Origin: Gnetum montanum
Taxonomy: Eukaryota; Plantae; Gnetophyta
Length of the DNA: 64,000 bases
Assembly: GCA_015680685.1 (NCBI GenBank)
Contig: MNCI01000273.1
Location: forward strand, 90,324 to 154,323
Direction: 5' to 3'
Shown here: positions 1-62,719 of the stretch, in pieces
Position numbering within the stretch: position 1 is the stretch's first letter
Layout: every line of letters starts with the position of its first letter
Notes under the pieces: generated by a model
Told to the model about the DNA's origin: nothing
Database searches by the model: none
Seen by the model: only the letters and a program-made list of their open reading frames with translations
Program-made: the position numbers and the translations under genes

Positions 1-1818
1 TAGAAGTAGGATTATTAGTATAGGTAATATTATAGGATCTACCATGACTTATCTATGACTAACTAGATATTCCACCTTGCATGCCATTAGGAAGTAGGAG
101 CTACTATTGTTATTATTGGAAGCTTGGTTGGTATAAGTATTTGAAGTAGGTAGGTATTTTTGAGGTATTATCATTGAGGTATGCATTTTATAAGTAACAA
201 TTAGGTATTAATGTCATCTTTTATTACATTAGAGTAGGAAGATTACATGGAGTAGCACAATAAGGATTTGAAGCTTGTCATCATTGCTACTATTGCATGG
301 GCTACGAATAAGCACCACCAATATAGTATGAATGGCTTGGGTATGGAATCATTCATGTTTACCTATTGATGAAATTGGGATTTAAAGGTATCCTATATTA
401 TACCATCTCACCAATCATGTGACCCATAACTAGATAACACTATGAATCATGAGAGTCTACATAGTATTCAAATGGATCCTTATATTCAGATGATGATGAG
501 GAAGATCCATTGGGATATCCTTGAATACTTTTAGAGTGGGAGATATTTCCTTTATAATTATGATGATATCTCTTTCTCTCTTTATATGGTGCAATAGCTT
601 TCACTATAGCTTCAACCATCTTACCTTTAATATCCTTGAGAGTAGTGGTAATCTCAAGGATATTAAAGGTAAGATGGTTGAAGCCAATATTTAAGTCTAT
701 CAAGGTCTTATTTATTCTAATATAATATTATGTTCAAGCCTCAAATGTAGTAGGAGGTTTAGTGACACCTTCAACATTTTTGGACTCTCAACTATATGAT
801 GAATCATGATTGTAATCCTTAGCTAATTGTTGCTTTCCCCATTCATCTTCCATGCTAGTAATGGTACTAATAGTGCTTTGATTTGGGCCATAAATGTTTT
901 GTACATATGGATGATCATGTACATGTTCATATGCTCTCTTGTTTTGTACCTTAACTCTTCTATAATATGCATCAATTGCTTCCTTTGGTGAAAACCATGG
1001 TTCACAAAACAATGAGCACTTTTCATGTACCTTTTCATGGTGATGTTGAGAGGCTCATAGTCCCCTTGCCTTCATTTGGCCATTTCCTTCTAGATGTTTG
1101 AAATTTAGACATATCTTTAAAATTTTTTATAGAAGATCTTGATCATGTCTACCCATATTTGATTTAATTAAGGAGGTAAATAATTATACCAACTTTCTAC
1201 ATGTTTAATGAAGGTGAGTGAAAACAACCATAACTTCTTCTAATCACTCATGATCCCTTGGATATGGAAAGCTCTGTCAAAGGCTTATGCATGCATTTGG
1301 AGATCATCACTGATATACCTTCTATATATGGATACATCAATAATGTTAATTCACTTGATTCTACTATCACAAACATGATTTCTTAGAATATGTACATCTA
1401 TCATCTACTGGTAATAATCACTCCAATCAAACAAATAAATATCATCATTGCCATTGACATGTATAGAAAAATGCAAATGTTAGAAATTGGAATAGAGATC
1501 ATCATGTTGAGCTATAGTTTAGGTGAATTCCCTAACCATGGATCTTGATGATGGGCTAGCCATTTAACTTTCTTATTTTCTATGACATCTTGCTTCTCAT
1601 TTAAATGATCATATGAGAAGATACAATCAACCTCTTATTTTACTACTTGATCTTGAAGACATTGCATTTTAAAGGACTCATAATCACCAAACATGGACTC
1701 ATGGTCCTTGTACACCATACCCTAGACTCATATTAAATAAGGCATCATAAGGTCATTTGCTGTAGCCACCACTAGGTTCCTAGAGAACTAGCCATGAGAA
1801 TCTCTTTGTCTTTCCTAC

Positions 1819-2680
1819 TAATGAGTGGAGAGGTAGCCCTAAACTCAATCATATGAATATAATCATATATGCATGATTAGGTTGAACTCTACGGATGGAC
1901 TAGTTGTGGCACCTAGACAATTATATGTTGATTGTAGTTTGCAATCTTCCCACATGGACTAGTAGTAGCTTTTTCATGTATGGTTTAGTCTAGAGTGAGG
2001 CATAAGATTTTTATTATGTTATGTTTTATTAATTTGATCAGCTAAAACAAGAATAAATGTGAGAGTAATTAAGTGCAAAGTAAATTATTGCCTAATCTAG
2101 CCTAACATAAGTAACCATTCCATTTTCTGGACACATCTTGAACTTTGAGAAACACTGCTGGGATATCAAATGCTAATCAGTTCTAAACTACCAAGTGTCA
2201 CATGTATGTTCAAAGGGGTCATGCTTGTGTGTTCTAATTAGTGTACTAATTAATCAAAACTAATTATTGAATGAATAACATTAATGTAAACTACATGAAA
2301 TCATGATATATATAAATGCATAAGAAAGAGAATCTTAAGTGCTGCAAGGTGAATCAAAGAGATCATATTTATTTCCAACAAAAATATGTTCAAGTACATC
2401 AATGATTAAATCAAGATCTAATCACACTTAGACTTCCTACTATAGGGAGTTGGAAAATATTCTAACTCTCATATGAACAAACTGCAAGAGTTTCCCTACC
2501 TGGTTTCCAAAACTACCCCTAAATCGTGTGCCCAAGGGCTATATTTATAGGCCCAAGAGTAACCTTGCGATATTGAATGTATGATATCACATATTGGGCT
2601 ATGATATCGTGTACCCGATATCATGTACCAGATATCATGGCCATCCCAATATTGGAGCTCATGTAAAACAAAATTCATCA
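1819..2680 (-). repeat. 3' LTR of element D
   Basis: Colinear with 7290-8150 and abuts the PPT. Terminal TG appears mutated to TA on the + strand. TATA-like rc CTATAAATA near 2540. Confidence 0.92.
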
Positions 2681-4699
2681 TACCCCCACAACTAAATGAA
2701 AACTCATCCTTGAGTACAGAAGAAGAGGAACAAGTTCTTTACAAAATATATTAGGAGGTATGGACTATTTGACTGACATGCAAAGTAAGATAGAGAAAAT
2801 AGACAAATATAGAAGTGCCTGAGCATAAAATATTATAATTGTGTATAAAATTGGTGTTCATGACAATAGGAAAGAACACCAACAGATCCAAATGACATCC
2901 AACCCCTCTAGGAAATATAAGAATAAGGGAGAGGTAGAAGAGATCTAGTGGTCATGAAAAATATCCCATAAGTGATATGGTTGCATCCTCCTTGGTAACA
3001 ATAGTCCCACTTCTAGTCCATGCTTTCCACTACAATCACAAAAAAACCAAAGATTAGTATATATAGTACAATAGATAATGGTTGAATACCTTCTCTCGTC
3101 AATGATTTTATTTAGCCACATTATGATTGTGATAGATTGGTTGCTTAATATTGTTAGTGGAAAGACTGATGAATGGGTTAAGTAAGCGAAGCGATCCATA
3201 CAATTTAGAAAAAGCTTAACACAAGGAATATTGGAACAAGTGTATTCACAATAATAAAAAGGATTTCACTACAAATAGTTGTGAAGGTGCACACAATTGG
3301 ATGACATAGATGGGGTAAATAAATAAATAAATTTTGATTGTAATAATGTCTGAGGATGAAGAACTTAACTTAACCTAACCAAAAGATATGCAAGTGGGTC
3401 CTCACCAAAGTAGGCACCGGTCTTTTATGCCTAAGCATAACTTCAAACCAAGAATTCCTTGGGCTTCATGGATGATTAATGGTTATGGAAAGTTAAGTAC
3501 AAAAACCCAAAAGTAACTGATTGAGAAGCCTGAAACATCAAACTAGAACATTGAATCAAAACATGAACCAACAGTGAGGTGAGGCATGAAAAGCATAGAT
3601 GGATGACAAAGAAAATGGTATGGAGTTCCTAATTATGGTCACATGAAATCCCTTGTGAAGTTTGTGATTAAATGACTTGGTAGGATCCATCCTTAGTTGA
3701 GACCAAAACCAACCACTTTCAATAACTTCACATTGACATTCTAAGGCTAGTCCATCCCTTGAGATACAAGAATTCTTCTACAAAGCAACCATCATTCCAG
3801 ATTGGGGAGAAAGTAGGAAGTAAGAAAGGGCCTTAGTTAGAGGAGGCAAGACAAGTCCTATAACCAGTGCTTGTAGCTTTTTTACTTGGTCTAAGGGATG
3901 TGCTTTGAATTCCCATGTCCTTTTTTGAATGGGAACCACACCAAGTAAACACCCATGCATTCTTTCATTTATTTTGTCCAAGGGATGTGCTTTGAATCCT
4001 CATCTCTCTCTCTCTTTTCTCTTTTTTTTCCTTTTTTTTCTACTTTTTTTGATGAGGACCACACCATTCAAGGACTTATTTGACTTCCTATTGTGGAATG
4101 ACACGGAATGGTGAGAAGCTCATGAGAACACTACCACACATAGGAAAATAGAAAAGAATGAGGAATAATGCATCCCTTTGAAGCCACACCTTGTCTGAAC
4201 CTTTGATCCCTTCCCAATTCTAGAAACTACACTAGCCACAAATTTATTAAAGTTGCATTAATGAAGAAGGGACTGCATGTTTCCAAAACAAGGAAAACCA
4301 TAGATTATGTGGATGGGTTGATGGTGTGGACTCACTACCTATTACATGAAAAGAAATCATGTCCCAATCATCAATAATGACATTGAAACTCAAAAACTAG
4401 ATATTAACAATCAAATTACAAATGAAACATACCACCCTCGAGTAGCACATTACCATTGCACCTGACATCTTATTAGTAGAAAGAGTAGAGAAACATATCA
4501 AACACAAGAAGATATATAAAAGAAAGTAAAAGATTATGCAATAAATATCAAATATATTAACGATGGTGTAAAACAAAAACTTAGAAAAGATCAATATCCT
4601 GGAAAACAAAAATATGTAAAACAAAGAATATGAAAACAAAAATTTGTAAAACCAAAAATGTGTAAAAAAAAATTTAAAAAAAACTTAAGAATCCTAGAA

Positions 4700-7230
4700 A
4701 TTAGAATGAGGGGTGACCCCCACACATAAAAACCTTGGTCATGACTAGGATTAATAAGTGGATGAATAGGATCCATGCATGTATGAAACGTTAGGGGTTC
4801 ATCATGCCCTAGCCACTGGGTGTCTATTGGTGTTATGGTGGCTAGGTAGAGAAATCGTTGATCACACACTTGATTATAAAAAGCATAGTGAGGTAGGTTA
4901 GATGATGTGTGTACATTATGAGGAAACCTTGACTAGATGGTAGCATGTATAGATTTGTGTGTCCCTTCACATTGGTGAATTCACTAGATGTTGAAGTGTG
5001 AGGTGAAGGCCTAGGTATGGTGATAGGGGCTATTGATGGGGGTAAGGAAGGTGTGGCACTAGGTTTTCCTTGGCCTATTTTAGAAGGTGAAGTAGATTCA
5101 GAAGTATGATTCTTCTTCTTACGATCATGTCTAAATAAGGGAAGCTTTCCATGTTGCGGAGGGAACCTACTTCCATTAATAGTAGTAGCACAAGTTACAT
5201 TCATTGGTTGACATGGTGGTGTAGAAACATCTAATGGAAGTGTAGAAGGAGATGAAGGATGATAATACCAAGGGTGAGGAGGAGTGTGAGAGGTATGAGG
5301 TGGTGATCCATCAGGAGAAGACATAGGTCAATGGTACTTGGGAGAGTGATAACAGTAATTGGAAGTAGAGGATTTAGAACTAGTTGGAGAAATAGGATGT
5401 TGGACATAGTAGGCATTTGGGTTTTGTCAATAGGAAGGATGTGGCTGACTAGATGGTGGCCTTTCCCATGCCTGTGAGTTTTGCCACTACGGTGGAGAAA
5501 AGTGTTGAGGCTGGTAATATTTCACCTCACGATAGTATAATGGATCATGGGGTTGTCCATACTTACCTTGTGGAAAAGGGATGTGCCTAAATCAATACCT
5601 TTGTATGAATTTTTGGTGCAGCCTCCCTGCCCAATGCTCCTATAGATGTCGCAAGACTGGGTAGCAACCCTTTGGATGATCATATAAACAAACCTCACAT
5701 CCATCCTCATTATCTATAGTTGAGCCTTTGGCCTCATTACCATTAGTCATACTCCTTGGTTACTAAATAGTGTCCTTAACTATTTCTAATTTCTATGCGC
5801 TATATTTGTTTTGATTGCTAGGTTTATTTTGGATGATCCTCTCCCTAATAGTATCTTCTAAGTTCACACTTTGTTCATTTTCCCATGTGGTCATCTTGTT
5901 ATGCTTCACCTCAATTTCATCTATTCATTTCTATATTGGCAAAGGTTGGGACTGTATCACCCTTTCAAAATTACTTGTTTCCTTTTCATTGTGTCTTTGG
6001 ACCCTTGTTATTTCTAGAGTTGGATCCTGCTCAAATGCTATGGCATTCTCCCATTTAGATAATTCTCTCTCTTCTTTTTCTAGACACTCTATTAGTTCTT
6101 TGACCTGTTGGCCTTGGAGCTTATATAGTTGTCCTTGGACATACTTTCCAAGGTTCACCCTTGTTTCATTTCTAAGACCATCTATAATATGGAGTATTTT
6201 CTCTTTCTTGGAGAACCTATGACCTAGACATTTATTTACTAAGGCATAGTATCTATCCAAGGTTATGTCTAAGGGTTCCTATTATTCTTGTTTCCATCTT
6301 GAATTTGTCTCCTCAAGGTAGACACTTGTGCATAAGTCTAGTATCTTTTAGTGAAAATTTATAGCATGGTTGACCATTGTCTGATCGAATTTGATTCCAA
6401 TGATCTATACCACACTTTGGCTTTATCGATTAGTGTGCTAGGAAAGAGCTTAATATATTTTCATTTAGTTTCCACATTGTTGAGCATACAAGCATCATGG
6501 AAGGCTAGTAAATGATGTTGTGGATCTGAATCATAGCCTCCTAAAAATTTTAAAATATTATTCAAGTTGAGCTTAGGTAGTTGACTCTTCTTCTGATGCC
6601 TGTGAGATATCTTAATAGCCTCTATGATGTGCATTAGGCTTTTAGGGACTAATATGGGTTTATTATCATCATCAGATAGGTGGTGATTAAAATATCTATT
6701 TGATCGATGGTGACAATGGGACTTGTATTCATGTTGATGACCTTGAATATGTTCATGGGTTTGATTTTTATTTTACTCTAACCCTTTCATGGAGATCTAT
6801 CTTTATTCCTACGTTCATCTTCATTAGAACTAGATGTTGAAGTTGAGGTGGAAGATGAAAAGGAGGAACTGGTAGGACAACCATGGCTTCTATACTGTTC
6901 CTCATGGTCCCTTGGTTTATCATTTCTAAGTACTGAGAAGGTCTTAGGCCTTGAGTCCTTTCCTAGTTTAGGATTGATGTCATCTCCTTCAAGATTTTCT
7001 ACCTTAGGTAAATGTAGTCTTTGAGTGTTGTTAGGGTGGTCATGGTCATGAAGAACCCCTTCATAAGATGGATTGCTCCAATATTTTTCATTGTATACTT
7101 TGTTAGTTCTCCAATGAATAGTTGTGCTATGTAGTTCATAATCATTTCCACGTAAGTGAGAAATTGTTATTGATTTGTAGTGTGTGTTTGAATAATTTTT
7201 GAAAGATATATTGTTAATACCATTTTATAG
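4700..7230 (-). pseudogene. gag: Decayed gag of element D (retrotransposon gag domain plus Pro-rich C-terminus)
   Basis: Minus-strand translation LPKLNLNNILKFLGGYDSDPQHHLLAFHDAC...KLFPSTLIDKAKVWYRSL..NSI fits Retrotrans_gag. ORF fragments 5931-6260 and 4842-5324. Stops and frameshifts present; boundaries approximate. Confidence 0.85.
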
Positions 7231-7289
7231 AGATCTTGTATGATATAACTAATCTAGATAACTAGCACCATCCTCAGCAATAGTGCCAA

Positions 7290-8150
7290 TGATGAGCCAC
7301 GAGGTACTACACTCAACCATACAAATATGAGCATGTATGCACGATCCAGTCAAACTTCATAGATGGATTAGTTATGGCACCTAGATAGTTATATGTTGAT
7401 CATAGTTTGTTGTCTTCCCACTTGGACTAGTAGTAGCTTTGTTACATATGGTTTAGTCTAGAGTGAGGCATAACATTTTTATTATTTTGTGTTTTATTAA
7501 TTTGATCACCTAAAATAAGAATAAAAGTGAGAGTAATTAAGTGTTATGTAAACTATTTCCTAATCTAGCCTAACACAAGTAACCATCCCCACTTTCTAGA
7601 AACATCTTGAACTTCGAGTAACATTGCTAGGCTGCCAAATGCTAATATCTTCTGAGCTACCAAGTGTGAGACATATGTTCAAAGGGGTCATGCTTATGTA
7701 TTCTAATTAGTTTCTTAATTAATCAAAACTAATTACTTAATGAATAATATTACTATAAATTACATGAAATCACGATATATATAAATGCATAAGAAAGAAA
7801 ATCTTAAGTGCTGCAAGGTGAATCAAAGAGCTCATCTTTATTGCCAACACAATGGTGTGTTCAAGTAAATCAATGCTTGAATAAAGATCAAATCACACTT
7901 AGACCTCCTGCTGCAGGCACTTGGAAAATATTCTAACTCTTAAATGAACAAACTGCATGAGTTTCCCTACTTGGTTTCCAAAACTACCCCTGAATCGTGT
8001 GCCCAAGGGCTGTATTTATAGGCCTGGGAGTAACCCTATGATATCAAATGTACAATATCGCATCTTGGGAAATGATATTGAGTACCCAATATCATGTACT
8101 CGATATCGTAGCCACCCCAATATCGAAGCTCATGTAAAAAAAATTCATCA
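7290..8150 (-). repeat. 5' LTR of element D
   Basis: TGATGAG...TTCATCA. Abuts the PBS and is followed by TSD CCTAC. Confidence 0.92.
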
Positions 8151-9079
8151 CCTACTTATCTTAATGTTAAGCAAGCACAATTGGTGGAAAGGTCTTATGT
8201 TTTGAATGCTCAAAGATAACAAAATTCCTTCATCTTTTTGGTACATTATTAGAGGCCTTTGATGAGCTCTTGGCATTATCTACCATTTCTCTTATGTTCA
8301 CAACCTATGCACACAACACTAAAACACACATTTGATTTGAATAATAATTAAAATCAAGAATGTATAGTTATTTTTGGATAATTAAAAAACAAAATCCTTG
8401 GAAATGTTATAATGATAGGATCTCACCCATTTTGGGCCAATGGGATATATCATACAAATCATAGTGTGATCCAATCATAATCTTCAAGGATGATGTTGAG
8501 TGGATTACTAAGAAGACTCATGTGTATCATTATATTTAATAAATATAAAAGATATTATAATACATATGATATGAATAGAAACCTATGTTGCAATGGTGTA
8601 AGATTGAGAAAATGTTTATAATTTTTTGTTTTATAATTTTTATGGATTTTATTCTTATAAGAAACAAACAAACAATAATAAACACACACACATTACAATA
8701 CCACCTAGTGATAGTAGAAATGTTCATGTTACAATCCCTCAAGGAATAGGTGCAACACCACATGTACACACATAAATACAATATAAACAAAATGGCTCTT
8801 AGTCATAACCTTGATGACTCAACATAATGAATTACAGATATGATCTCCTTGGGTAAGGTTGAATCATCATAGCTTATGAAAAGAAGAAATGAATAAATAT
8901 TTTTATGGATTTAATATTTTATAAATTTTTTTGATTTTAATGTTTAAGTCATTAATAGTGAAAAAATGAGGAAAAATCATAAGCTTTATTCACCATGCAA
9001 TCACTGGACCCCACATTGATTGAATGGTTTTGAGATACATAAGCATGGTGGTGCTCTGATAGAGTCTAGCCATACTTGT

Positions 9080-10136
9080 TGATGAGTGGCGAGGTACCTC
9101 TACACTCAACCATACGAATACAAGTGTGTACGCATGATCTGGTCGAACTCCACAGACTAAATGCCTTAACGCCACAAGAAACACTTGGGGTTAATCATTC
9201 GTTGTCTTCCCAGGCTTGCTTGTATGTCTCATGGTGTATGGTTAAGCAAGTTTGAGGTATATGATTTTTTTGGTATTTCTTAGTTTATCTCCTAAGCTAT
9301 GAGGGAGAGGCTTGAGAAACTAACTAACTCTAACTAATGTCCTAAGTCTAAATTAACTAGCGTCAGCATCCGTTCCCACTTACTGGACACACCCTGAACT
9401 ATGCAACTGTGGCTACTAAACGCTAATCATTACTGGGATCACCACACGTAACGCAAGTGCTCGAAGTGGTCATACTGAGGCACCTATTTAGCCTAAGTGT
9501 GATAAGTAGCCGATTCCTTGGCTAGCTGTACACACCCGTGAGTGCTCGTAGCCAAGTCGTACTTATCACACGTTCTAGCCTAGCGATGAGTAGCCGATTC
9601 CTTGACCAGCCGTACACATTGGACTACTATTGGGATTGCCAAGCGAAAATCCTGGAATATGCTACTGGGTTATCAAGCAGTGACAATGCTCATAATCAAG
9701 TCGTACTCACGCGTTGCGATGAGCAGCCGATTCCTTGATTAGCCGTACACACCCGTAGGTGCTCGTAATCAAGTTGTACTCGTGTGCACTAGAAAAGCAA
9801 TAAATAACAACAAAATAAAACTATGTACCACAAGGTTTATCCAATCAAGTTCATATTTATTACCATACACAACTTGTGTTCAAGTTACAAAGTTGCTCAA
9901 ATAAAGAGCCGTTCACTCTAGGACTCCTACTGTGGGCACATGGGAAATTAATCTAACTCTGGAGTGTTCAAACTGTCAGAGCTTCGCTACTTCTAGCCAA
10001 GATTGGGAAATGAAGGGAGTGCTACCTCTTATTTATAGATATGGTGGTAGACCTCGATATTGTGTACGTGATATCGCATGGAGAGACGTGATATCGCGTA
10101 CGCGATATCGCAACTTGTGCAATCTGCGTCTCATCA
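9080..10136 (-). repeat. 3' LTR of element A (1057 bp)
   Basis: Direct repeat of 15323-16427. TATA-like rc CTATAAATAAG at about 10028-10038. Poly(A)-like AATAAA (rc) near 9857. Confidence 0.95.
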
Positions 10137-10172
10137 TACCCCCATGACTGAATGAAAACTTGTCCTCGAGTT
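10137..10172 (-). promoter_or_regulatory. Polypurine tract with upstream CTCGAGGAC motif (element A)
   Basis: rc AACTCGAGGACAAGTTTTCATTCAGTCATGGGGGTA immediately before the 3' LTR. The same block occurs in B, C and D and resembles the Athila GAGGAC...TGGGGG PPT context. Confidence 0.85.
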
Positions 10173-12058
10173 CCTTACAATGATATCAGGTAGGTATGGG
10201 ATTATTAAGGTAAATGAAACTAATGGAATGACATGTGAACGGTTCATTATTACAAGACTTGGCAAACTGGTGTTCGAGACAATAAGCATGAACACCTTAT
10301 TACAATGACATCAGGCCACATTTGGCAGCTGAGAGAAAAGAGGAGAGAGAATAGAAGAGAAGAAGAGAGAAGAGTCTTGTTGCTGCCAACGCCTAGATTG
10401 CGCCTTTCGTTGTCCATCTGTAAGCGCATTATCAATTCCACTCCTTGCATGCTGCTTCAGCGCTGCTCCATTCCAAGTGTCTGCTCCAGATCCATTCTGT
10501 TGTTGTATGATTGCCATCTGCACACACAACACCATCATATATTAGCAAGGGTAATTGAATCATTAAGTAAAGCATACCTTGCTTCGGTTTAGGTTCCTTG
10601 GCTAAGTTGTGGTATGGCTGATATGGATCTAGGAAAATGTAGATGATGACTACCGAAGGCATAGGGGTTAGGAAGAAAAACGAAAAAATCCGGGGCTTAG
10701 GATAAAAATCGAAAAATCAGGCCCCGTACCCCCATGACTAATCGCGAACCTCCGGTAGCGTTAGAATGGAGAGAGAAAAGGAATAGGAATGATAGGTAAA
10801 AAGGGACAACTATGGCATCGATAAAAAGGATGTCATGATGGAAATGAACAAAAATGTTAATTAATTGCAAAACGTTAAGGAAAAGAAGTTAACTAATGTT
10901 CCAAATAGGAATGTCAGTGGGTCCTCCCCAAAGCAGGCTCATGCCCTTAATGGCCTGACAATCCCACATGCAAAGAGTCCATAGGCTCTGGAAATTTCCT
11001 TTGGAACAAGAGTTAAAGTCTTAACAGTAAGAATTTACCAAAAAGAAAACAATGCATCAACCAAAATATATACACTAATGATACAATTAGCAATGAGTTG
11101 AATAGTGGAGAGAAGGGTGGAGAGAAGGGAAGTGGAATGGAATCCCAAGAACAAGGTGGTGTACAACCCCTTGTGTGTTTTATGATAAATGTGACTTGGT
11201 GAATCTCATTCCAATTCTGGCTCAAACCAACCACTTCCAGTGACTTCGCATCAATGCATTTGGTTAAACCATCCAATTGGATAACAAGGATGCATCTTCA
11301 AAGAGACACCACCATTCCAACGAAACAACGGAGAGAATGGGAAGTGAGAAGGGCCTTAGTTAGAGGGAACACTTTGGTTCCATAACCAGTGCTTGCAGCC
11401 CAAATTTTATTTCGTCTAAGGGGTGTGCTTTGAATCCTCACTTTGGTTTTTTTTTTTTGTGTTTTGTGTTTTTATGTGCAGGGACCACACCATGCAAAGA
11501 CTTCTTTATTTTTATTGTCTCAACTTCCGAAGAATGGGTAACATCAGAATGGTAAGAAAACTCAAGAAGAAAACATCCAAGCACCCAAGTGAATGACCAA
11601 CACAAGAGCACCAAGTTCCCTTGAAGTCATACCCTTTGCAAGCCTTGAGTCCGTCCTTAGTTTGAGAAATACCCAGTCACCAGTTCGTTAAAGTTCTTAT
11701 TAGAAAAGGGGACTATACATTTCCAAGCCAAGAGAAACCATAGACTCTGGTGGATGGATGGATGAAGTGATCTCATTGCCTACCATATCAAAAGAAACAT
11801 ACCTTAGTATTAACATTGGAACTTAAAGGTAAAAACCAAACATTAGCAATTAATGAAAAATAGTTCATCCCATCGGTCTAAACACTTATTGGGTGATGAA
11901 CTTACATGGTGGATAACACACACACACACATAAAAAATAGAAAAGTATAACGATGGTATAAAAAAAAACATCAAAAGTTAAAGAAAGTTGTAAAAAAAAT
12001 GTGTAAAACAAAAATGTTGTAAAACAAAAACCAAAAAAGAACTGAGGGCCCCATATGG

Positions 12059-15024
12059 TTAGCATAGGTGGCCATCTCCCCAATGACTGAGTTGTAAGGG
12101 AGAGATCCGAAATAGTGAGCGCCTATTTGAATTTCTAAGAAGTGCCCAACTTCTCCCAATTGATGATCTTAAGTTGAGGGGTGGAAGTTGGCGACGCTCA
12201 CGTTCCAATGTGTCTATGCCACGGTTGTTGGCATGAGTTTCCTCAGTTCGTTCCATGCATATTTGTTTGCCCCTATGAGAAGCTGTCAACCACAGGGTGT
12301 CTACTACTTCTTGTGTGGTTGCTACATACAGGCATCTTTGTTGCAGAGTTTCTTGGGCACACCTGTTACATGGAGACATTTCCTCCATGTCATCACCCGA
12401 TGAATCACTGTATGTGATGCATGGAACTATCCTCTTCTCGATCTTTCCACATATGTTTATCTTAGAGATTTCCAAGGAAAGATCGCGGATCCTAAGGCAT
12501 GCATCTACTGTGCTTAGCCATGCCCTTCCCATTATAATGGGGAAGTCCCCTTCGTTGTTGTTCACTTTGATCACTAGAAAGTTAGCTGGGTAGGACCAAC
12601 CACACCCAGTGGTAATAACGTCCTCCACCAATCCCAAGGGAATGGTGATGGACTGGTTTGCCAGCTCTAGTTGGATATTGCTCTTCTTAAGTTGTGGTAG
12701 GTTCCAGGCGTGATACATCTTTTGCGAAATTAAGTTGACTCCAGAACCTGAGTCAAGAAGAGCTCGATGTGGTGCATTTCCAGTGATTTGCAAATAAATA
12801 AATGGACTCCTAGGGTCAGTTAGTTTCTTGGGAAGGTGGCCTACCTTGATCCAGTCAGTTACGGTATGTGTTAACATAACTGTATGCATTACACTCCTTT
12901 GGATTGAAGGGTTCTTCGAAGCCTTAGTGGTTAGAGGCCTATACATGTACCCATCTACTTGTTGTTGCGAGAGTTTGTCTGGGCTCCTAGTTCTGGAAAA
13001 AGGTCTCTTCTTTGTACAGTTGTAGCCAGAACTAGCACTCGGTCAGATATTTACATGCTGAATATTTACAGCTCTCGCAGCATTACATTGCTACGGTTGG
13101 GTAGGCAATTCCCCCTGCATTGTTAGAATAGGTTGTATGGGAACTATAGGTGGAAGAGGTGCGGGTGGAGTTAGAGGATGGACAAAATGTGAGATTTCTC
13201 TCGGAGGAGAAGGAGTCCTTCTGAAGTACTCCCGAGCTTGGTAGTGATGTTGGGGGGTAGTGTGACCCATAGAGTCACCTAGAGAAACTGGCTGCTGCAC
13301 ATAATAACCATAAGAATCAGGCTGCCGGTAAGGGTATTGATGTGTTGGCAGTGGCATCGATGTTGTCCAATGGTTTGTGGAGGCATTCCACTTGGATAGT
13401 ACGTCAAGGGTTGGTGGAACTGCCTTGGATTACCTTGTGGGTAAGGTAACCTTCGGGGTGTTTGTCATTGATTAAGTCTTGGATTTAATGCATACACCCT
13501 AGACTCCTACAGATGTGAGATAATTGAGCAACATCCCTTAGGATGGTCATAGTAGTAGACCTCACATCCACTATCATTGTCTGAATCAGAATTTACAACC
13601 TCATCGAAGATAGGAATTTTTCCCTTACCCTTGTTATGTGCAGGGCTTAANNNNNNNNNNNNNNNNNNNNNNNNNNNNNNNNNNNNNNNNNNNNNNNNNN
13701 NNNNNNNNNNNNNNNNNNNNNNNNNNNNNNNNNNNNNNNNNNNNNNNNNNNNNNNNNNNNNNNNNNNNNNNNNNNNNNNNNNNNNNNNNNNNNNNNNNNN
13801 NNNNNNNNNNNNNNNNNNNNNNNNNNNNNNNNNNNNNNNNNNNNNNNNNNNNNNNNNNNNNNNNNNNNNNNNNNNNNNNNNNNNNNNNNNNNNNNNNNNN
13901 NNNNNNNNNNNNNNNNNNNNNNNNNNNNNNNNNNNNNNNNNNNNNNNNNNNNNNNNNNNNNNNNNNNNNNNNNNNNNNNNNNNNNNNNNNNNNNNNNNNN
14001 NNNNNNNNNNNNNNNNNNNNNNNNNNNNNNNNNNNNNNNNNNNNNNNNNNNNNNNNNNNNNNNNNNNNNNNNNNNNNNNNNNNNNNNNNNNNNNNNNNNN
14101 NNNNNNNNNNNNNNNNNNNNNNNNNNNNNNNNNNNNNNNNNNNNNNNNNNNNNNNNNNNNNNNNNNNNNNNNNNNNNNNNNNNNNNNNNNNNNNNNNNNN
14201 NNNNNNNNNNNNNNNNNNNNNNNNNNNNNNNNNNNNNNNNNNNNNNNNNNNNNNNNNNNNNNNNNNNNNNNNNNNNNNNNNNNNNNNNNNNNNNNNNNNN
14301 NNNNNNNNNNNNNNNNNNNNNNNNNNNNNNNNNNNNNNNNNNNNNNNNNNNNNNNNNNNNNNNNNNNNNNNNNNNNNNNNNNNNNNNNNNNNNNNNNNNN
14401 NNNNNNNNNNNNNNNNNNNNNNNNNNNNNNNNNATCTTCCCTTTTACTTTTACTCTCTCCATTATGCTCACGATGGTTGCGCCCAGATGTGGAAGGAGAG
14501 TGTGAATGGTGAGATGAAGGAGAAGAGGAAGGGGATCCATCACCATGGTGATGTTTCTTACCTTCTCTTCGGCTACTTTGGCCTCGATTGTTGTAATGAT
14601 CTAAGTGTCTATCCTTAGTATGAGTGGTTGTTCCTACCGTGAACAGTTGGTGCTCACGGGGATCAGAGCCTATAGCATGTATAGTTGATCGAAGGCCCTG
14701 ATGGTTAACCTCTCCACTAGAGTGAGGAGGAGGAACATCATTTTCTAAGAAACCCATTGTGAGGGGTTCCTCGTCTTCTATTTCACTAATGACATGGGGG
14801 ACCTTTCCCTTCAACAATGAATGTTGGCTCTCTTGCCTTGCATCCCTCATACGTTGCAAAGCGGTGGGATGATAATCCCTTATATGGTATCTTCCAGCAA
14901 CGTATTTAGCGAATAAGTCCTACATGTCAATCTGTGCCAATCCACGGAAAAGCATGTTTGGAACAGATCGATCTGGTGGTAAAAATATATTACCAAACAA
15001 ATCTCTCTCCAGCCAACTATTCAT
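12059..15024 (-). pseudogene. gag-pro: gag-protease polyprotein remnant of element A (interrupted by the N gap, stops and a frameshift)
   Basis: ATG at 15024 (MNSWLERDLFG...). The 12059-12946 ORF has an aspartic protease: LPKKLTDPRSPF...RALLDSGSGVNLI...PIIMGRAWL. Zn-knuckle-like GCEVYYYDHPKGCC near 13530-13570. Confidence 0.9.
13651..14433. other. Assembly gap (783 N) within the gag of element A
   Basis: Run of N. Its flanks align with element C at about 48560 and 49545, i.e. within gag. Confidence 0.99.
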
Positions 15025-15303
15025 CCTGATGGAGGGTAAAAGTGTAATCAGGAATATACTCATCGAGATGAGTATAAGTTATCGTATACTGTTTAGGACA
15101 TGGCTGGTCTCGGTTATGCATGTGATGCTGACTGTCTCCTGTGTTGTCCTTAGGTGAGTTAATTTCATGAGAAGAAGCCATCCTAATGGTGTGCTGTTTT
15201 TTACCATTAATTAATTTTTATTGATTAACTCGAAGGTTCGTTGGGGCTCACAACGATGTGAGTGATATCCCTTATGTTTACTTGGTGTAAAAAACACTTA
15301 GTC

Positions 15304-15321
15304 TCCCCGGCAACGGTGCCA
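15304..15321 (-). promoter_or_regulatory. Primer binding site, tRNA-Asp type (element A)
   Basis: rc TGGCACCGTTGCCGGGGA, one mismatch to the complement of the plant tRNA-Asp(GUC) 3' end. This PBS is typical of Athila. Confidence 0.9.
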
Positions 15322-15322
15322 A

Positions 15323-16427
15323 TGATGAGTGGCAAGGTACCCCTACACTCAACCATACGAATATGAGTGTGTACGCGTGATCCGGTCGAACTCCATAGAC
15401 TAAATGCCTTAACGCCACAAGAAACACTTGGGGTTAATCATTCGTTGTCTTCCCAAGCTTGCTTGTATGTCTCATGGTGTATGGTTAAGCAAGTCTGAGG
15501 TATATGATTTTTTTTGTATTTTTCAGTTTATCTCCTAAGCTATGAGGGAGAGGGTTGAGAAACTAACTAACTCTAACTAATGTCCTAAGTCTAAATTAAC
15601 TAGCATCAGCATCTGTTCCCACTTACCGGACACACCCTGAACTATGCAACTATGGCTACCAAACGCTAATCATTTCTAGGATCACCACACGTAACGCAAG
15701 TGCTCAAAGTGGTCATACTGAGGCACCTATTTAGCCTAAGTGTGATAAGCAGCCGATTCCTTGGCTAGTTGTACACACCCGTGGGTGCTCGTAGCCAAGT
15801 CGTACTTATCACACGTTCTAGCCTAGCGATGAGTAGTCGATTCCTTGACCAGCCGTACACATTGGACTACTACTGGGATTGCCAAGCGCAGATCCTGGAA
15901 TACGCTACTGGGTTACCAAGCAGTCACAATGCTCGTAATCAAGTCGTACTCACGCGTTGCGACAAGCAGCCGATTCCTTGATTAGCTGTACACACCTGTA
16001 GGTGCTCGTAATCAAGTCGTACTTGTGTGCACTAGGAAAGCAATAAATAACAACAAAATAAAACCATGTACTGCAAGGCTTATCCAATCAAGTTCATATT
16101 TATTGCCATACACAACTTTTGTTCAGGTTACAAAGTTTCTCGAATAAAGAGCCGTTCACTCTAGGACTCCTATTGTGGGCACATGGGAAATTAATCTAAC
16201 TCTGGAGTGTTCAAACTGCCAGAGCTTCGCTACTTCTAGCTAGGATTGGGAAATGAAGGGAGTGCCGCATCTTATTTATAGATATGACGGTGGACCGCGA
16301 TATCGCGTACATGATATCACATGGAGAGACGCGATATCGTGTACGCTATATCGCAGGGGATGCGATATCGTGTCGGCCGCGATATCGCGTACACGATATC
16401 GTGGCTTGTGCAATCTGCGTCTCATCA
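15323..16427 (-). repeat. 5' LTR of element A (1105 bp)
   Basis: Direct repeat of 9080-10136, 48 bp longer because of extra GATATC palindrome units. Confidence 0.95.
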
Positions 16428-21589: not shown

Positions 21590-24500
21590 TAGATTGAATA
21601 GCTTAGTTCCATTCATATTAGAAATTTTGAATGTGCCACTGCCAAAGGCCTTAGTGACTAGAAATGGCCCCTTCTAATTTGGCTCTAACTTGTTAGCAAG
21701 TTCAGGAATAACTTTTACAACTATGTCACCTTCTTTAATTTTTCACTAATTTAGGTTGATGTGTTGTCATTGCCTTTTCGTTTCTTGGTATCACTTGATA
21801 TCAACAAGTGCTTGTAAGTAGTGTTTATATGCAAAGTCAAGGTTGATGATGTCCTATGTATAAATTTGATCTTTATTAATATGATCAAATAAGACTACTC
21901 TCAATGATGGATCTATAATTATAAAGGAAAGATATTGTTAGATTCATATACAAGGTTGTAAGATGTGATAGTAGTTATGGTACAAAAAGTTTTTCTAAAA
22001 TCCTATAGTATGTATAATAGTTGTTGATGTCATTTTCTTTTGTTACTAATTATGATCTTCTTAAGAAGGTTGATTATAGTCTTGTTACTAGCTTGTACCT
22101 AACCATTTTCTTGTGGGTAATATGGTGTAGAAAATGAATGTTGGATACCTAATTATTTATAGAAAGATTTTGTTTTACTACTACTAAATTAAGACCTAGT
22201 ATCCATAATGATAGTAAGTGATAGGTCAAATTAGGAAATGGCCAAATCATGAAACGATGTTATTAAGTATAAACTAGCAAACTTGTTGCAATGTTATCTA
22301 TCTTAATGAGATGTCTTCTACCCATTTTGTAAAGTATTCTATGGTAGTAATGATGAAACTATGACCTACAAATGACTTAGGTGTTATGAGTACACTAATA
22401 ATGAGACCCCAACATTGGAAGGACCAAGTTATCTATATTGTATGTAATTCTATTGGTGGAACATGAATAAGGTCACTATGTCATTGATAAGTGTCATAAG
22501 GTTTTACTTTTTTCATGTAGTCATGCTTCATATAAAGCAAATAACAACCTAAACACCCAATCTTGGTAGTCATAGATCTAGCTCGAGTATGTCCTTCACA
22601 TAGACCTTCATGCACTTATTGTAAATTATCTAAGCTTGATATTTTTCAAGGAAAACTAATAATATAAAATCATATAATTTTTTACATAGTATGTTATTGG
22701 CTATGATAGTACATTATTCAACTCTCTTGCATATAACATCCTTTTAGGTTGAACCTAAATGTTGAGGAAGTTCATCATATGGTAGGTAATACTTAATATC
22801 ATCAAACCACTTAGGTTGAATATCATTATTTATAATGGTGATAAAAATGTCTTTGTGTTCTTGCATTATGGGTTAAGATTAGGCTACTATCATTGATGGT
22901 AATTTATATAGAACTTCAAGAGTTACAATTAACAGGAAAGTAGCTATGGCATCTACTTAGGCGTTTTCATTATAAGAGATATGTTGGATGTTAGTGTATT
23001 TAAAGATTTCAATTAAATTTTATCCAAGTTATGGTATGATAATAGATGTTTAACTTTACAAGAAGAGACATAACAAGAAGTTAAAAATCACCCTTAATAA
23101 TTAGCTAAGTAAACCTTTGATTATGAGCCACCATGAGCATGTAAATAAGACCTTCATACTTACCAACATTATTAGTACATGGGAAGTGAAACATAAAAAT
23201 AAAAATAAAAGATGTCACCTAAATGAAAGAGGAGAATGATTGTAGTGCTAGCCTCATGTATGTTAGATGCCCCATCAAAATTGTATATGACTTCAAATCG
23301 TTTGGGTAGACTTTTAATAGCTTTGATATGCTCATCTAGAAATCCAAGTTCTATGGTACTATTGTCTATGATAGGGAGTGCAACCATTTGACTAGTGATA
23401 GCCTATCCTTTAGTTGTAGTTTGTGAAATGAAATGTAAATCAAATTGGACTACTATGGATTTATATTGAGCTATCTTATTGTTTTGATATATATTAGAGA
23501 TGATAACCCTTAATACATTGTCTTTACAAATAATGTTTGCCTTTTCTTAGAAAAGGTAGTCTCGCCACTTATTTATGGAATAAACTAAAGATAAGTAATT
23601 CCTTTCAACTATGATGTAGTAGGTTTCATAGGCCCCAAGGGTGTGAGTTAGAGATAATAGATAGGTGTGTAGACCCATCTTATTGTCTTTGACAAAGTAA
23701 TAAAGCTATAGACATGTAAGAATGCCAAGTATATGTAAAATAAATTTTCTTTTTATGACAAGTACATTGTTAAAAATCAAGTTAATTCTTGCTTGTTTTC
23801 ATCAAAGGTAGTTTGGCGCTTGTCATCCCAATTAAAATTGACATCCCTTTTGAGTAAGTGTTACATAGGTTGTAGTTTATTACTTAATATAAATATGTAC
23901 TTATGAATGAATTGCAAACTTCCTTCTATACATTATAGTTCTTTAAGGTTATTAGGGATTAACATGTTCATTATGACTTTGAATTTATCTAGGTTAATAT
24001 GTATTTCTACTTTTGAGACTTAGAAACCAAGCATTTTTTTTATTTTAATAGTAAAAACACATTTCTTTAGACTAAAGATCATACTCAAGATAGCATTGTA
24101 GAACAACATGTAAGTGTTCAACATGGTTGCTAGCTATTTTTAATTTCACTACTATTTCATCTACATAATCATTTACTAGGCTATGCATAAGATCATTGAA
24201 AACGTATGTCATAGGTCATTGATATGTTGCCCCAATATTCTTTAATAACAAAATGTCCCCCAAGGTGTCATGAAAATTATATATAACTAATGTTATGGGT
24301 TAATTCTAATTTTTTTATATCCTAAAAACTCATCCATAAAGGATAGTAATTCAGGACTTGCTATTATATCAACAAGTTGGTCAATACATGGAAGAGAAAA
24401 TCATCTTTAATTATTTATTTGTTAAGGTTGTAGAAAATCTGTATATATATATATATATATATGATTTCTCTCGTTTTTCTTAGGTACTATAACCATATTG

Positions 24501-25425: not shown

Positions 25426-26302
25426 TGATGAGTCATGATTTGATCTACTTTGATATCGAATATCCAATATCGGAGCCTCGATATTGGATACCTGATATTG
25501 GAGCTCAAGAAGCGATGTCGATATTCAATATCATCTCCTTTGTGCCATCCTTTAAATACAACACTTGGGGACATAGTTAGTTTTAGTTTTTGATAGCCTT
25601 TCTTAGATTTCTAAATTTAAGTTCCAGTATTCCCAATGCATGTTTGCAATGTGATTTTTGTGATTGTATGACATCCTTATTCGAGTGCGATGTACTTGGA
25701 TACTTAACATGATTGGAAATAAAGATAGAGATTACCTCCATCATTACAACATCCACTTAGATTCATTATTTATTTAATTATTTAATTATTTAATTATTTA
25801 TTATCTTATTTAGTTAATGCTTCTATTTATTTCTATTTACTATTCTTGTCATTAAGCAAAATGAGTACAACCTAATCACAAGCACTTAAGTGTAATTACT
25901 TGGTACCCTAGCAGTGTATCATTTGGCAAGCTTAGTGACATATGCTTGGTAATCCTAGTAGTAGGCTCACAAAGTCCAAGGTGTGTGTGGATGATTAAGA
26001 ATAATTACTCATCTCACGTAGGCTAGTTTAGACTTTACTTTCCATTGTTACTTAGCTTAACTAATTAATCTCTTTATTGTCATTAGGTGTAGCATAGAGT
26101 TAAACAACATCATCATATGCCTCACTTTGGACTAAACCATACATAATAAAGCTACAACTAGTTCATGTGGAAATACAACAAACTATGATTAGAGCATAAT
26201 GATTTAGATGCACAACTAGTCCCATCAATGAAATTTGACCAAATCATGCATGGACACTTGTGATTTGTATGGTTGAACATAAGGATACCTTGCTACTCAT
26301 CA
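25426..26302 (+). repeat. 5' LTR of element B
   Basis: Direct repeat of 32111-32987, followed by the PBS. Confidence 0.92.
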
Positions 26303-26349
26303 TTGGCATCATTACTAGGGATGATGCTAGTTATCTAGATTAGTTATAT

Positions 26350-28910: not shown

Positions 28911-30173
28911 TTCAAGATTCATACATGCTTTTCATCTTTTTTTAACATTTTTTTATCATTTTCTTATTTCTTGATATAATGTTTCTATTCCTTTCAACTT
29001 TTTCTATATTTTCTTTTCATTTTCTTTGTTACATAATCTCACTCGCAAATAAAATGATGATGTAGCCCATTGAGCTAAGGTTTTCTTTATGTTTTCAAGT
29101 CATAAGTGACTAATTAGTTAGATAGTGAGCCACATCATCCATCCACCCATTTCATTAATAAAGAGATTCTAACCATGGTTATAAAGATATTCTTTTCCAT
29201 CATCAAAACTAAAAATAAATTCATAATCATTATGCCTAGACTAAAAAGTGAAGAACCAAGGGGGAATGTAAAGGGTGTGACATCAAGGGGATTTGTGGAT
29301 TCTCTTTGACCACTTTTGTATGTTTTACCATGATTGCTAAGGCTGTAATTATATCCTTGTAGATCTAAGAAAAAATGGAAGTCAAAATGAACTAAATGGG
29401 CACTAAATAAATTTCTAAAGGTCCCACTAGAAAGATATGTACCCATGCCTAAAGGTTGGTCGCTTCTCAAAACATGTTAAAATAATAATAATAATAAAAT
29501 CATGTGCCATTACTAAAGTCCTCCCTTGGAAAAAACACCAAGTGATGCTACTTCTTCCAACTATGGTAGTCTTATGGTTGTCAGCTGAAGTGATGAAACA
29601 ATGCGATGTCATTGACATGTGGTTTGAACTTGGTTTGAATCTTTGAAATAAGGGCTAACAGTTATTTAACCATTAATAGCACATAAGGATTCATTATGAC
29701 TTTGGTAAGATACCTCATGTCCCAATTTCTACAATCCTTTCTATAGTCCATCTCATCTTGTTGTCCCTATGATCCTAACTTATGGTTTTGTATAACATAG
29801 GGTTATTTCCTCACCTTGGTGGTTTTAACATGTGTGTTTTGTTTCATGGGTATGTGTTGCATTCAACTCATTCAATTCCGGCAGGCATTTTTAGGTGTAG
29901 TTACACAAGGGAATTATGGGATTAAGCCTACTTTGGGGAGGACCCACTTGTGTAAATATTGTAACTTGTACCTCTTTGACATAGCTGCATCACTCTTTAC
30001 CTTCCATGTGCATTATTGTTAAATTCCATGCTTTCCATTATCATGTAATAATTCTATTCCATAACATTGATATAATACCCAATTTCTTTCACTGTTCAAA
30101 AATTTCAACATCGATGACTCCATATTCTACCACCTTCAATGCCTTCATATGATTTTCTACTTATCCTAGAACT

Positions 30174-31917: not shown

Positions 31918-32110
31918 GCTTCCCTAATTTTGTGTCTTGTAATATTGTGTTCTAATTTTTGTAAAAACACCACTATGACATGTAAGAGTACATTTGGTTG
32001 TTTCTTTGTTTGAGTTAATCAATAATTTCATATCTTCATAATATTTTGTAAAAAACTTGTTCCTCATTTTGTTTAACTCAAGGATGAGTTTTCATTCAGT
32101 CGTGGGGGTA

Positions 32111-46950: not shown

Positions 46951-46979
46951 AAAAGAACTGAGGGCCTCCAATGATTAGC

Positions 46980-50429: not shown

Positions 50430-51257
50430 TGATGAGTGGCGAGATACCCCAACACTCAACCATACGAATATAAGCGTAGCATGTGCAATCTAGTCGAACT
50501 CTGAAGACTAAGTGCCTACACGCCTCATGGAACACTTAGGGTTAATCATTCATTGTCTTCCTAGACTTACTTGTAGTTGTCACGGTGTATGGTTAAGTAA
50601 GTTCGAGGTATATGATTTTTATGTCTTTTTATCTTTTATCTCCTATGCTAACAAGGTGAAGGGTTGAGAAGACTAATTAACTAACTCTAACTAATGAACT
50701 AAATCTAAATTAACCTAGCATCAACATCTATTCCCACTTACTGTACACACCTTGAACCGATGCGACCTTGGCTACCAACTGCTAATCGTTGCTAGGATCA
50801 CCAAGCATAACACATGTGCTTGAAGTGGTCGTACTAAGGCACTTAATTAGGAGAGAAGGGTTGAGAAAGATTTAACAACTAATAAATCAATAAATAACAA
50901 ATAATAAATAATAGTAAATAAAATCATAATTAGCCTATTCCATGCACTGCAAGGTTTATCCGAAAAGCTCGTCTTTATTTCCGTACACAAACATGTCTTC
51001 AGGTACAATGTCTACTCGAATAAAGATCTGTTTACTTTGGGATTCCTACTGCGGGCACATGGAAAATATTCTATCTCTGGAGTGATCAATCTACCAGAGT
51101 TTCACTATGGTCTAAGCCTAAGATTAGAAAACAAGGGAGAGCCGCCTCTTATTTATAGATATGACGGTGCATCGTGATATCGTGTATGTGATATCGTGAG
51201 GGATGCGATATCACGACGACCGTGATATCATGGCCCATGTGATATTGCATCCCATCA
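50430..51257 (-). repeat. 5' LTR of element C
   Basis: Abuts the PBS and is followed by TSD CATGT. Confidence 0.94.
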
Positions 51258-61823: not shown

Positions 61824-62719
61824 TGATGAAGTGAATTTTTTCTAGCTCTAATATTGAATATTTGATATCAGAGACCTGATATCAGATACCCAATATTGAG
61901 GACCAAGAAGTGATGTTGGATATCCGATATCGAAGGATGTGTGTCGACCTATAAATATAACACCTAGGTACATGGTTTGGACTATCTGTTGTCATAGTGT
62001 AATAGAGCTCTTGCAAGTTTTCTTCCCTAGAGTTAGAGTATTTTCCCAAGTGCCCAAAATAGGAGTCATTAAGTATACAGATCTTTATTTAAGCACTATT
62101 GTACTTAAGCACAATAGTGTGTGCATTAATAAAGACAAGCTTTCTCATAAACCTTACAAAAATTTGGCTAGATTAAATATTTTCTTCATGCATTCAATGT
62201 TTTTAGCAAATTTATTTAATGCTTTTATGTAATTAAGGTAAATTAATCTAAATTAAGCTAGATTAAATAGCAATTAATTAAGCACATAAGTACGACCACT
62301 CTGAGCATGCACATGAGGCTTGGTAATCCCAATAATGATAAACGTTTGATAATACAACAATGTTATAAGTGTTTAGGAAGTGCATGGAAAGTGGAACCAA
62401 ATACTTATGTTAGGATTAGTTATACATTGGTTAGTTAGTTAGATTAAATTAGCAATTAAATTACTTCATTCTTTTCATCCTTTATTTTAAGCACCCAAAA
62501 CATAAAACATAAAAATAATAAAATTATGTCTCAATTACACTTAACCATACCTTTGCATATCAAAAGTGTAATTGGGAAGACAATGAATGACTGTTAGGAA
62601 AAATTCACTTTGTAGAGGCTACTATATCTGAATAAAAAGGGTCCATGGAATTCAATTAGATTGTGCTTGAATGCTTAGTGATTTGTATTGTTGAGCATAA
62701 GGGTATTCACTACTCATCA
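61824..62719 (+). mobile_element. Solo LTR E of the same Athila-like group
   Basis: TGATGA...CTCATCA, 896 bp. TSD ATTGG at 61819-61823 and 62720-62724. Contains the GATATC array, TATA CTATAAATA at about 61949 and the conserved U5 hairpin module. Confidence 0.9.

What the first reader, a model, noticed from the sequence alone, without database searches (positions are those of the whole stretch)
9497..9787. Element A has amplified the U5 module to four copies, including two minimal versions and one resembling another family's module
Seen: C, D, B and E carry one module. A carries four in both LTRs: long 9360-9481 (C-like), short 9497-9571, long 9583-9712 and short 9716-9787. The short copies replace the whole variable insert with a tiny loop (GCACTCACGGGTGT), which defines an approximately 70-nt minimal core. 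The insert of module 3 (CTTGGTAACCCAGTAG...CTTGGCAATCCCAGTAGTAG in the 5' LTR) resembles B's insert more than A's own first module. Inference: module exchange between families plus amplification, possibly to compete for helper proteins. A also looks like the youngest element.
Basis: partly seen in the sequence, partly recalled or inferred. Interest (0 to 1): 0.75.

Follow-up and report, generated by a model that had tools for sequence, protein, structure and literature searches.

The report
Chimeric RNA-module array in retrotransposon leader
A plant jumping gene that lacks its own copying enzyme carries four copies of a predicted RNA stem-loop in its leader where its relatives carry one; three of the four likely came by recombination from a distant family, and the stem-loop likely helps the RNA get packaged for copying.

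Summary
Confirmed. Element A (9080-16427, minus strand) is an Athila-like LTR retrotransposon with gag and protease but no reverse transcriptase found. Both LTRs carry four copies of a U5 module; B, C, D and solo LTR E carry one. The module is a predicted rod of three stems kept by compensatory changes (type II set: 9 of 23 pairs; the type I set alone does not beat shuffles). It comes in two types. A's module 1 is type I, like C, D, E; modules 2-4 are type II, like B, although A's LTR backbone is sister to C. Module 3 lies 0.46 changes per site from B's module against 1.06-1.44 for the backbones, while type I modules track their backbones: exchange, not slippage. The short copies end in YNMG-type tetraloops. 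The array is old (copies 77-87% alike) and a minority form (about 7% by rough contig depth), so an advantage from four copies is not shown. No ribozyme sign. Likely role: packaging or dimerisation signal, untested. The scan noted a similar three-copy motif in another genome (e1-7498856; homology not checked).

The parts
9080..16427 (-). Element A: non-autonomous Athila-like LTR retrotransposon (gag-like region + protease), 5-bp target-site duplication ACAAG
9080..10136 (-). 3' LTR of A (TATA box at 10037, AATAAA at 9861; modules lie downstream of it, in U5)
9360..9481 (-). Module 1, long, type I (6-bp middle stem); A's own, groups with C
9497..9571 (-). Module 2, short, type II (8-bp middle stem), CACG loop
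9583..9712 (-). Module 3, long, type II; insert is B-like, lacking part of B's middle sub-repeat
9716..9787 (-). Module 4, short, type II, UACG loop closed by C-G
15323..16427 (-). 5' LTR of A (TATA 16280, RNA starts near 16240, AATAAA 16104)
15603..16030 (-). The same four modules in the 5' LTR (1: 15603-15724, 2: 15740-15814, 3: 15826-15955, 4: 15959-16030), each 92-96% identical to its 3' LTR copy
15304..15322 (-). Primer binding site, one mismatch from the Athila Asn/Asp site
   Evidence: motif as printed in 10.64898/2026.03.20.713144
12437..12850 (-). Retropepsin-like protease region
   Evidence: Pfam gag-asp_proteas E 1.8e-4, below cut-off; tblastn E about 1e-12 with Ty3/gypsy polyproteins
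25857..26017 (+). Single type II module in the 5' LTR of element B (3' LTR copy 32555-32715)
50718..50842 (-). Single type I module in the 5' LTR of element C (3' LTR copy 44346-44470)
7572..7701 (-). Single type I module in the 5' LTR of element D (3' LTR copy 2102-2232)
62282..62409 (+). Single type I module in solo LTR E

Best explanation
Element A's U5 region is a mosaic array of a predicted RNA stem-loop: one module of its own lineage plus three that likely came from a B-like lineage by template switching during reverse transcription, and the module likely acts as a Gag-binding packaging or dimerisation signal in the 5' leader. Shown: four copies, two types, tree conflict between modules and backbone, pairing kept across types, position downstream of the conserved poly(A) signal. 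Inferred: two related RNAs were packaged together, reverse transcriptase jumped between their similar U5 regions out of register, and the incoming module was then copied and twice trimmed to its core, the insert being replaced by a YNMG-type tetraloop. Inferred by position and analogy only: because U5 is present in full-length RNA only at the 5' end, a structure there marks genomic RNA, which a gag-protease element without reverse transcriptase must get into particles that hold a helper's enzymes. That four copies work better than one is not shown.
For: Backbone trees upstream and downstream of the array join A with C (100/99 and 96/97) and reject A+B (AU p 0.001 and 1e-6). Module cores split into (A2-4, B) and (A1, C, D, E) at 100/99; AU rejects all A modules as one clade (p 0.005), and inserts alone reject module 1 + module 3 (p 0.005). 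Rate test: module 1 to C, D, E, B = 0.24, 0.65, 0.70, 1.30, like the backbones (0.25-0.30, 0.69-0.95, 0.79-0.90, 1.06-1.44), but module 3 to B = 0.46. Stems: 252 of 270 positions pair (222 Watson-Crick, 30 G-U, 9 A-C, 9 other), which favours the element's own strand; the middle stem pairs 91% with its own partner and 39% across types. Type II alignment: 94.6% of cells paired, 9 of 23 pairs with two-sided change, 0 of 500 shuffles reach the covariation score, slid controls 25-39%. In RNA reads the innermost pair of module 4 is U-A where both window copies have C-G (16002: 155 of 155, 69 of 71, 75 of 75 reads; 15995: 145 of 148, 61 of 65, 56 of 68; unphased). 21 of 162, 62 of 145 and 9 of 34 reads carry a 5-nt insertion at 15927 that makes module 3 still more like B. 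RNA depth in R over module 1 is 1.3, 1.8 and 9.5 against 0.43-0.46 in three DNA runs, as expected if many transcripts end before the modules (rough). No reverse transcriptase match inside A or C, though the same query finds remnants elsewhere in the window. Recombination between co-packaged plant LTR elements is documented (PMC5668417, passages); retroelement leaders carry packaging and dimerisation structures (PMC5454406, abstract; PMC5784592, passages).
Against: No binding, packaging or probing data. Only 15 modules from 5 elements could be aligned; no genome is held. The type I set alone does not beat the shuffles (114 of 500). With the middle stem removed the core tree does not resolve the two types. 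Most two-sided changes are transition pairs, and related rows can beat shuffles without structure. Modules 1 and 4 alone fold only weakly better than shuffles (z -0.8 and -1.9). Module type does not follow gag lineage: D has type I but its internal 5' region is closest to B's (69% over 2070 nt). The four-module form is a minority. C and E have direct repeats on both sides of their single module (0 of 500 shuffles), so they may once have had more copies.
Confidence: 0.5

Rival explanations
1. Same mosaic origin and same RNA structure, but the module serves another step: translation from a long leader (internal entry or shunting), nuclear export, suppression of the 5' LTR poly(A) site, or primer activation.
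For: About 1050 nt between the RNA start and 15190 hold 14 AUGs; the modules sit just downstream of the AATAAA; structured export elements exist in mouse LTR elements (PMC12786077, passages).
Against: Nothing direct. Free gain, loss and trimming of copies fits repeated binding sites better than one large entry-site fold (inference).
Confidence: 0.22
2. Old paralogy with birth and death: the common ancestor carried both module types in tandem, C, D and E lost type II, B lost type I; no exchange between families.
For: Direct repeats flank the single module of C and E; contigs of a related organism (run X13, records 14 and 15) join a type II 3' arm to a type I 5' arm although module 3's insert is almost absent there; modules 2-4 are only 77-87% alike.
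Against: Module 3 to B is about a third of the backbone distance while type I modules track their backbones; B's module sits in the same place, before the same downstream spacer, as type I does in the others; at least three independent losses are needed.
Confidence: 0.13
3. One module is functional, the extra copies are passengers: exchange and duplication happened but give no advantage, and part of the apparent compensation comes from hairpin-templated repair during reverse transcription.
For: Four-module form is a minority by rough depth; two- and three-module joints exist (9566-9788 and 9573-9715; 15806-16032, 4 reads); single-module families are abundant.
Against: All three extra copies keep all three stems after 13-23% divergence, both short copies end in a YNMG-type loop, and a two-sided change separates subfamilies in module 4. 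This rival overlaps with the best explanation on origin.
Confidence: 0.1
4. The module is a self-cleaving ribozyme of an undescribed class, making these elements retrozyme-like.
For: LTR position, conserved internal loops between variable stems and a dispensable insert resemble how small ribozymes vary; plant retrozymes carry hammerheads in LTRs (PMC4918200, search listing).
Against: No Rfam ribozyme match at E up to 10 or at gathering score; no hammerhead or twister core in 9 of 9 arrays; in three raw RNA runs the only pile of ends is at 16240, the likely start, none in a module; cleavage in U5 would cut R off the genomic RNA.
Confidence: 0.05

Closest known systems
TR-GAG and other gag-only non-autonomous LTR retrotransposons (definition in PMC6022998; RLG_Quinta in PMC11302176; passages read)
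   Same: LTRs, primer site, gag or gag plus protease, no reverse transcriptase; lineages shaped by recombination.
   Different: The passages read describe shared LTR ends and primer sites, not a covarying U5 module in several copies and types.
Athila clade of Ty3/gypsy (PMC6317226, 10.64898/2026.03.20.713144; passages read)
   Same: Primer site one mismatch from the Athila site, 5-bp target duplication, Ty3/gypsy-like gag and protease.
   Different: No reverse transcriptase to place it on the tree; clade assignment rests on the primer site.
Packaging and dimerisation leaders of Ty1 and retroviruses (PMC5454406 abstract; PMC5784592 passages)
   Same: Conserved stem-loops in the 5' leader near the primer site, kept by pairing.
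   Different: No sequence likeness tested or claimed; here the unit is a repeatable cassette inside U5, 280-700 nt upstream of the primer site, in 1-4 copies and two types; function untested.
Recombinant Onsen copies in Arabidopsis (PMC5668417, passages read)
   Same: Pairwise recombination, LTRs included, between co-packaged RNAs.
   Different: Onsen members are near-identical and exchange in register; here the partners differ by more than one change per site in the backbone and the product keeps both versions in tandem.
Plant retrozymes (PMC4918200, listing only)
   Same: Non-autonomous LTR elements with a conserved RNA motif in the LTR.
   Different: No hammerhead core, no sign of cleavage, 7-kb gag-bearing elements.

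Membership tests
Athila clade | Primer site for tRNA-Asn/Asp (TGGCGCCGTTGCC as printed in the paper) | tested here: met
   A and C differ at one position, B and D at more
Athila clade | 5-bp target-site duplication | tested here: met
   all five elements; common to 93% of plant LTR elements, so not diagnostic
Athila clade | Placement by RT, RH, INT trees; no extra RNase H | not testable with these tools
   no such domain found inside the elements
TR-GAG | gag, or gag plus protease, between LTRs | tested here: met
   weak gag matches in B, C, D and protease in A, C; A's gag lies partly in a 783-base gap
TR-GAG | No RT, RNase H or integrase | tested here: inconclusive
   no RT match in A-D with 7 distant queries, one carrying part of RT; RNase H and integrase poorly covered by the queries; about 2.3 kb after A's protease leaves little room
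Retroelement packaging/dimerisation signal | Lies in the 5' leader, outside R | tested here: met
   downstream of an AATAAA conserved in 9 of 9 LTRs; RNA depth falls after R (rough)
Retroelement packaging/dimerisation signal | Stems kept by compensatory change | tested here: met
   type II set and across types; not in the type I set alone
Retroelement packaging/dimerisation signal | Self-complementary or kissing motif | tested here: inconclusive
   a palindrome of 6 nt or more at the inner stem/insert border in 7 of 11 long modules, chance 0.07-0.15 each, but in none of A's 4; found after looking
Retroelement packaging/dimerisation signal | Gag binding, dimer formation, need for packaging | not testable with these tools
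   bench work
Hammerhead retrozyme | Hammerhead core in the LTR | tested here: not met
   (core motif recalled)
Twister-sister-like ribozyme | 5- and 6-nt internal loops with a conserved CA cleavage site (PMC11620745, passages) | tested here: not met
   loops here are 3 x 7-8 nt, or smaller if the two CG pairs form, with no CA fixed across types
YNMG tetraloop | Loop YNMG closed by a pair (cUUCGg, uCACGg in PMC2346598, abstract) | tested here: met
   3 of 4 short copies by sequence; the fourth reads UACA, and most RNA reads have G there (15997: 143 of 148 in X24); fold not tested
Kink-turn | Tandem G-A, A-G pairs after a 3-nt bulge (recalled) | tested here: not met
   the long strand has CGG where GA is needed (by eye)

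The most novel reading that the evidence does not exclude
The module is a lineage-specific address label for packaging, and element A is a parasite that has collected the labels of two lineages, plus stripped-down high-density copies, so that it can be picked up by either helper: a modular, exchangeable packaging code in plant retrotransposons, with a natural 70-nt minimal version ready for testing.
Probability: 0.15. Interest if true: 0.8.

Novelty: new variant of a known kind. Interest (0 to 1): 0.5.

Why it matters
How plant LTR retrotransposon RNA is chosen for packaging, and how non-autonomous families borrow helpers, is poorly mapped: a search for six such terms together found no paper, and the passages of a 2025 review that mention packaging name no plant packaging structure. 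Here natural variation has done the deletion series: 1, 2, 3 and 4 copies, two types, long and short forms. That makes the question testable with short RNAs. It also shows exchange of a leader module between families whose LTRs differ by more than one change per site.

Tried and rejected
No whole genome is held. Rfam: 5 weak matches at E up to 10, none on a module as a ribozyme or cis-element of matching shape; none at gathering score in the window. Metagenome scan for the type II 5' arm gave 1 locus, L001, a 22-nt chance match in bacterial-looking DNA. LTR-end patterns found 0 in viral and 0 in prokaryote genome contigs. Run search: no RNA holder listed on record. Protein searches gave only 29-33% identical Ty3/gypsy-like proteins from Tanacetum, too far to place the clade; the protein atlas gave no answer. 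One search failed on a parsing error; the core alignment misplaced the outer 3' strand of modules 2-4 and was redone (its backbone tests are unaffected). A 20-nt loose end behind 15827 (137 reads, one run only) looks like a library adapter (recalled) at a site that resembles the adapter's end, so it was not counted as an RNA end. Whole-array folding recovers modules 2 and 3 but not 1 and 4 in the 5' LTR copy. The sub-hairpin motif is shared by all long inserts, so I tested whether it alone explains the module 3-B likeness: it does not, since spacers align too and other families score 27.5-45. Earlier scan notes by place and sequence: nothing. Supplements of papers were not opened.

Full report
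Setting. The window is AT-rich DNA with five related LTR units: D (about 1820-8151, minus), A (9080-16427, minus), B (25426-32987, plus), C (44058-51257, minus) and a solo LTR E (61824-62719, plus), each with a 5-bp target duplication. A and C have a primer site one mismatch from the Athila site printed in 10.64898/2026.03.20.713144 (passages). A and C carry a protease region, B, C and D weak gag matches, and no reverse transcriptase match was found inside any of them, although the same query finds remnants elsewhere in the window. This fits the TR-GAG definition in PMC6022998 (passages); RNase H and integrase were poorly covered by my queries and A has a 783-base gap. That the host is a plant is inferred from these features and from the nearest proteins. 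No genome is held, so all alignments rest on the window's 15 modules.

The observation. All nine LTRs have a TATA box and, about 175 nt later, an AATAAA. The modules lie downstream of it. A has four in both LTRs, the others one. A's LTRs are 93.1% identical, those of C, D and B 88.1, 85.0 and 84.4%. The short copies have a 6-nt insert, the long ones 64-95 nt.

Anatomy. On the element's strand each module is a predicted rod: outer stem, internal loop, middle stem, a second loop of the same make, inner stem, then the insert. Both loops have YGA on the 5' side and a strand ending in CGG-N or its methylation-type variants on the 3' side, which allows two C-G pairs. Over 15 modules, 252 of 270 stem positions pair; 30 are G-U against 9 A-C, favouring the sense strand, and all four 5' LTR modules fold better on that strand, with z -4.5, -1.9, -2.3 and -0.8 for modules 2, 4, 3 and 1. 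Long inserts hold two or three copies of a small hairpin motif. Three of four short copies end in a YNMG-type loop (PMC2346598, abstract).

Two types. The middle stem is 6 bp in A's module 1, C, D and E, and 8 bp of different sequence in A's modules 2-4 and B. It pairs 91% with its own partner and 39% across types. Within type II, 9 of 23 pairs show two-sided change and no shuffle of 500 reaches the covariation score; within type I the same test is not significant (114 of 500). The rows are related and few, so these counts are not probabilities.

Origin. Backbone trees on both sides of the array join A with C and reject A with B. Module trees join A's modules 2-4 with B (100/99) and reject a single clade of A modules (p 0.005); inserts alone agree (p 0.005); without the middle stem the core does not resolve the types (no rows left out; trees unrooted). 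The rate test is the strongest point: module 1's distances to C, D, E and B follow the backbone distances, while module 3 is 0.46 from B's module against 1.06-1.44 for the backbones. So exchange is the better reading. Direction and donor are open, and B looks mosaic too. Modules 2, 3 and 4 are 77-87% alike in the core, about as far apart as the A and C backbones (81-83%) and much further than A's two LTRs, so the array is old, not recent slippage. Template switching between co-packaged RNAs is the documented route in plants (PMC5668417, passages); that it acted here is inference.

Family-wide data. In four DNA runs laid as contigs the family is very deep. Module 3's insert and the spacer upstream of module 4 reach about 7% of module 1's depth in X1, X2 and X6, and 0.2% or less in X13, a different organism label, where type II arms stay at 30-54% and two contigs join a type II arm to a type I arm. 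Contig depth is not copy number, so this is rough. Joints for two- and three-module forms exist at low depth. In three raw RNA runs 2479-3507 reads were laid, nearly all from other copies (11-54 at 99% or more). Two runs are biased to the element's strand if the usual library convention holds (12- and 21-fold in R, 4- and 7-fold in module 1), depth in R exceeds that in module 1 more than in DNA, and the one pile of starts is at 16240, 40 nt after the TATA start (9 molecules). Almost all reads have U-A at module 4's innermost pair where the window has C-G, and 13-43% carry a 5-nt insertion that brings module 3 closer to B. No pile of ends falls in a module.

Mechanism. I commit to a packaging or dimerisation signal (0.5 for origin and role together; origin by exchange alone about 0.8, RNA structure about 0.85). 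The grounds are position in the part of the LTR that is read only at the 5' end of genomic RNA, pairing kept through sequence change, tolerance of copy number, and the dependence of these elements on helper enzymes; the analogies are Ty1 (PMC5454406, abstract) and retroviral leaders (PMC5784592, passages). Against a strict lock-and-key with Gag: D has type I but a B-like internal region. Against an advantage of four copies: the form is a minority. Translation, export or poly(A) control remain possible; a ribozyme is unlikely.

Novelty. Nine literature searches listed no description of this module; the library lacks most subscription papers and no supplements were opened, so absence is not shown. 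Papers seen as passages: PMC11620745, PMC5668417, PMC12786077, PMC6022998, PMC6317226, 10.64898/2026.03.20.713144, PMC11302176, PMC5784592; as abstract and outline: PMC5454406, PMC2346598; as listing only: PMC4918200. The scan's own notes hold analogous cases in other genomes (e1-7498856, e1-8074061, e1-8074075), not checked here. Structured leaders, LTR recombination and gag-only elements are each known; a covarying, exchangeable U5 cassette in two types, stacked and trimmed in one lineage, is a new variant. Interest 0.5.

Noticed in passing
window 25426-32987: Element B looks mosaic itself: its U3/R and module are far from D (1.33, 1.27) but its downstream U5 is close (0.63) and its internal 5' region is 69% identical to D's.
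   Followed up: partly
window 61824-62719: E is a solo LTR with a 5-bp target duplication (ATTGG), not a whole element.
   Followed up: yes
window 16290-16410 and the matching part of all nine LTRs: U3 holds a variable run of GATATC-centred palindromes just upstream of the TATA box; DNA contigs show many length variants there.
   Followed up: no
window 50850-50900, 44470-44520, 62245-62282: Sequence just upstream of the single module of C and E repeats sequence just downstream of it, a possible scar of earlier gain or loss.
   Followed up: partly
inner stem/insert border of long modules: Family-specific palindromes in 7 of 11 long modules, none in A's window copies; 43% of depth in run X1 carries a change at 9456 that gives one in module 1.
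   Followed up: partly
window 9379-9384, 15622-15627, and C: Type I modules of A and C contain GTAAGT, a splice-donor-like word; none of the 15 joints shown (of 36) starts there.
   Followed up: partly
window 46695-46947, 4603-4673, 11987-12030: A 15-nt A-rich tandem repeat in the internal region of C (17 copies), D (5) and A (3).
   Followed up: no
window 59945-60196 and 23780-24400 (minus strand): Weak reverse-transcriptase-region matches outside elements A-E; possibly remnants of another, once autonomous family.
   Followed up: no
window 13651-14433: A 783-base assembly gap inside A's gag region.
   Followed up: yes
window 609-684; 34591-35610; 52695-53044: A near-perfect 36-bp hairpin, a 506-nt tandem duplication and a 174-nt tandem duplication.
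   Followed up: no
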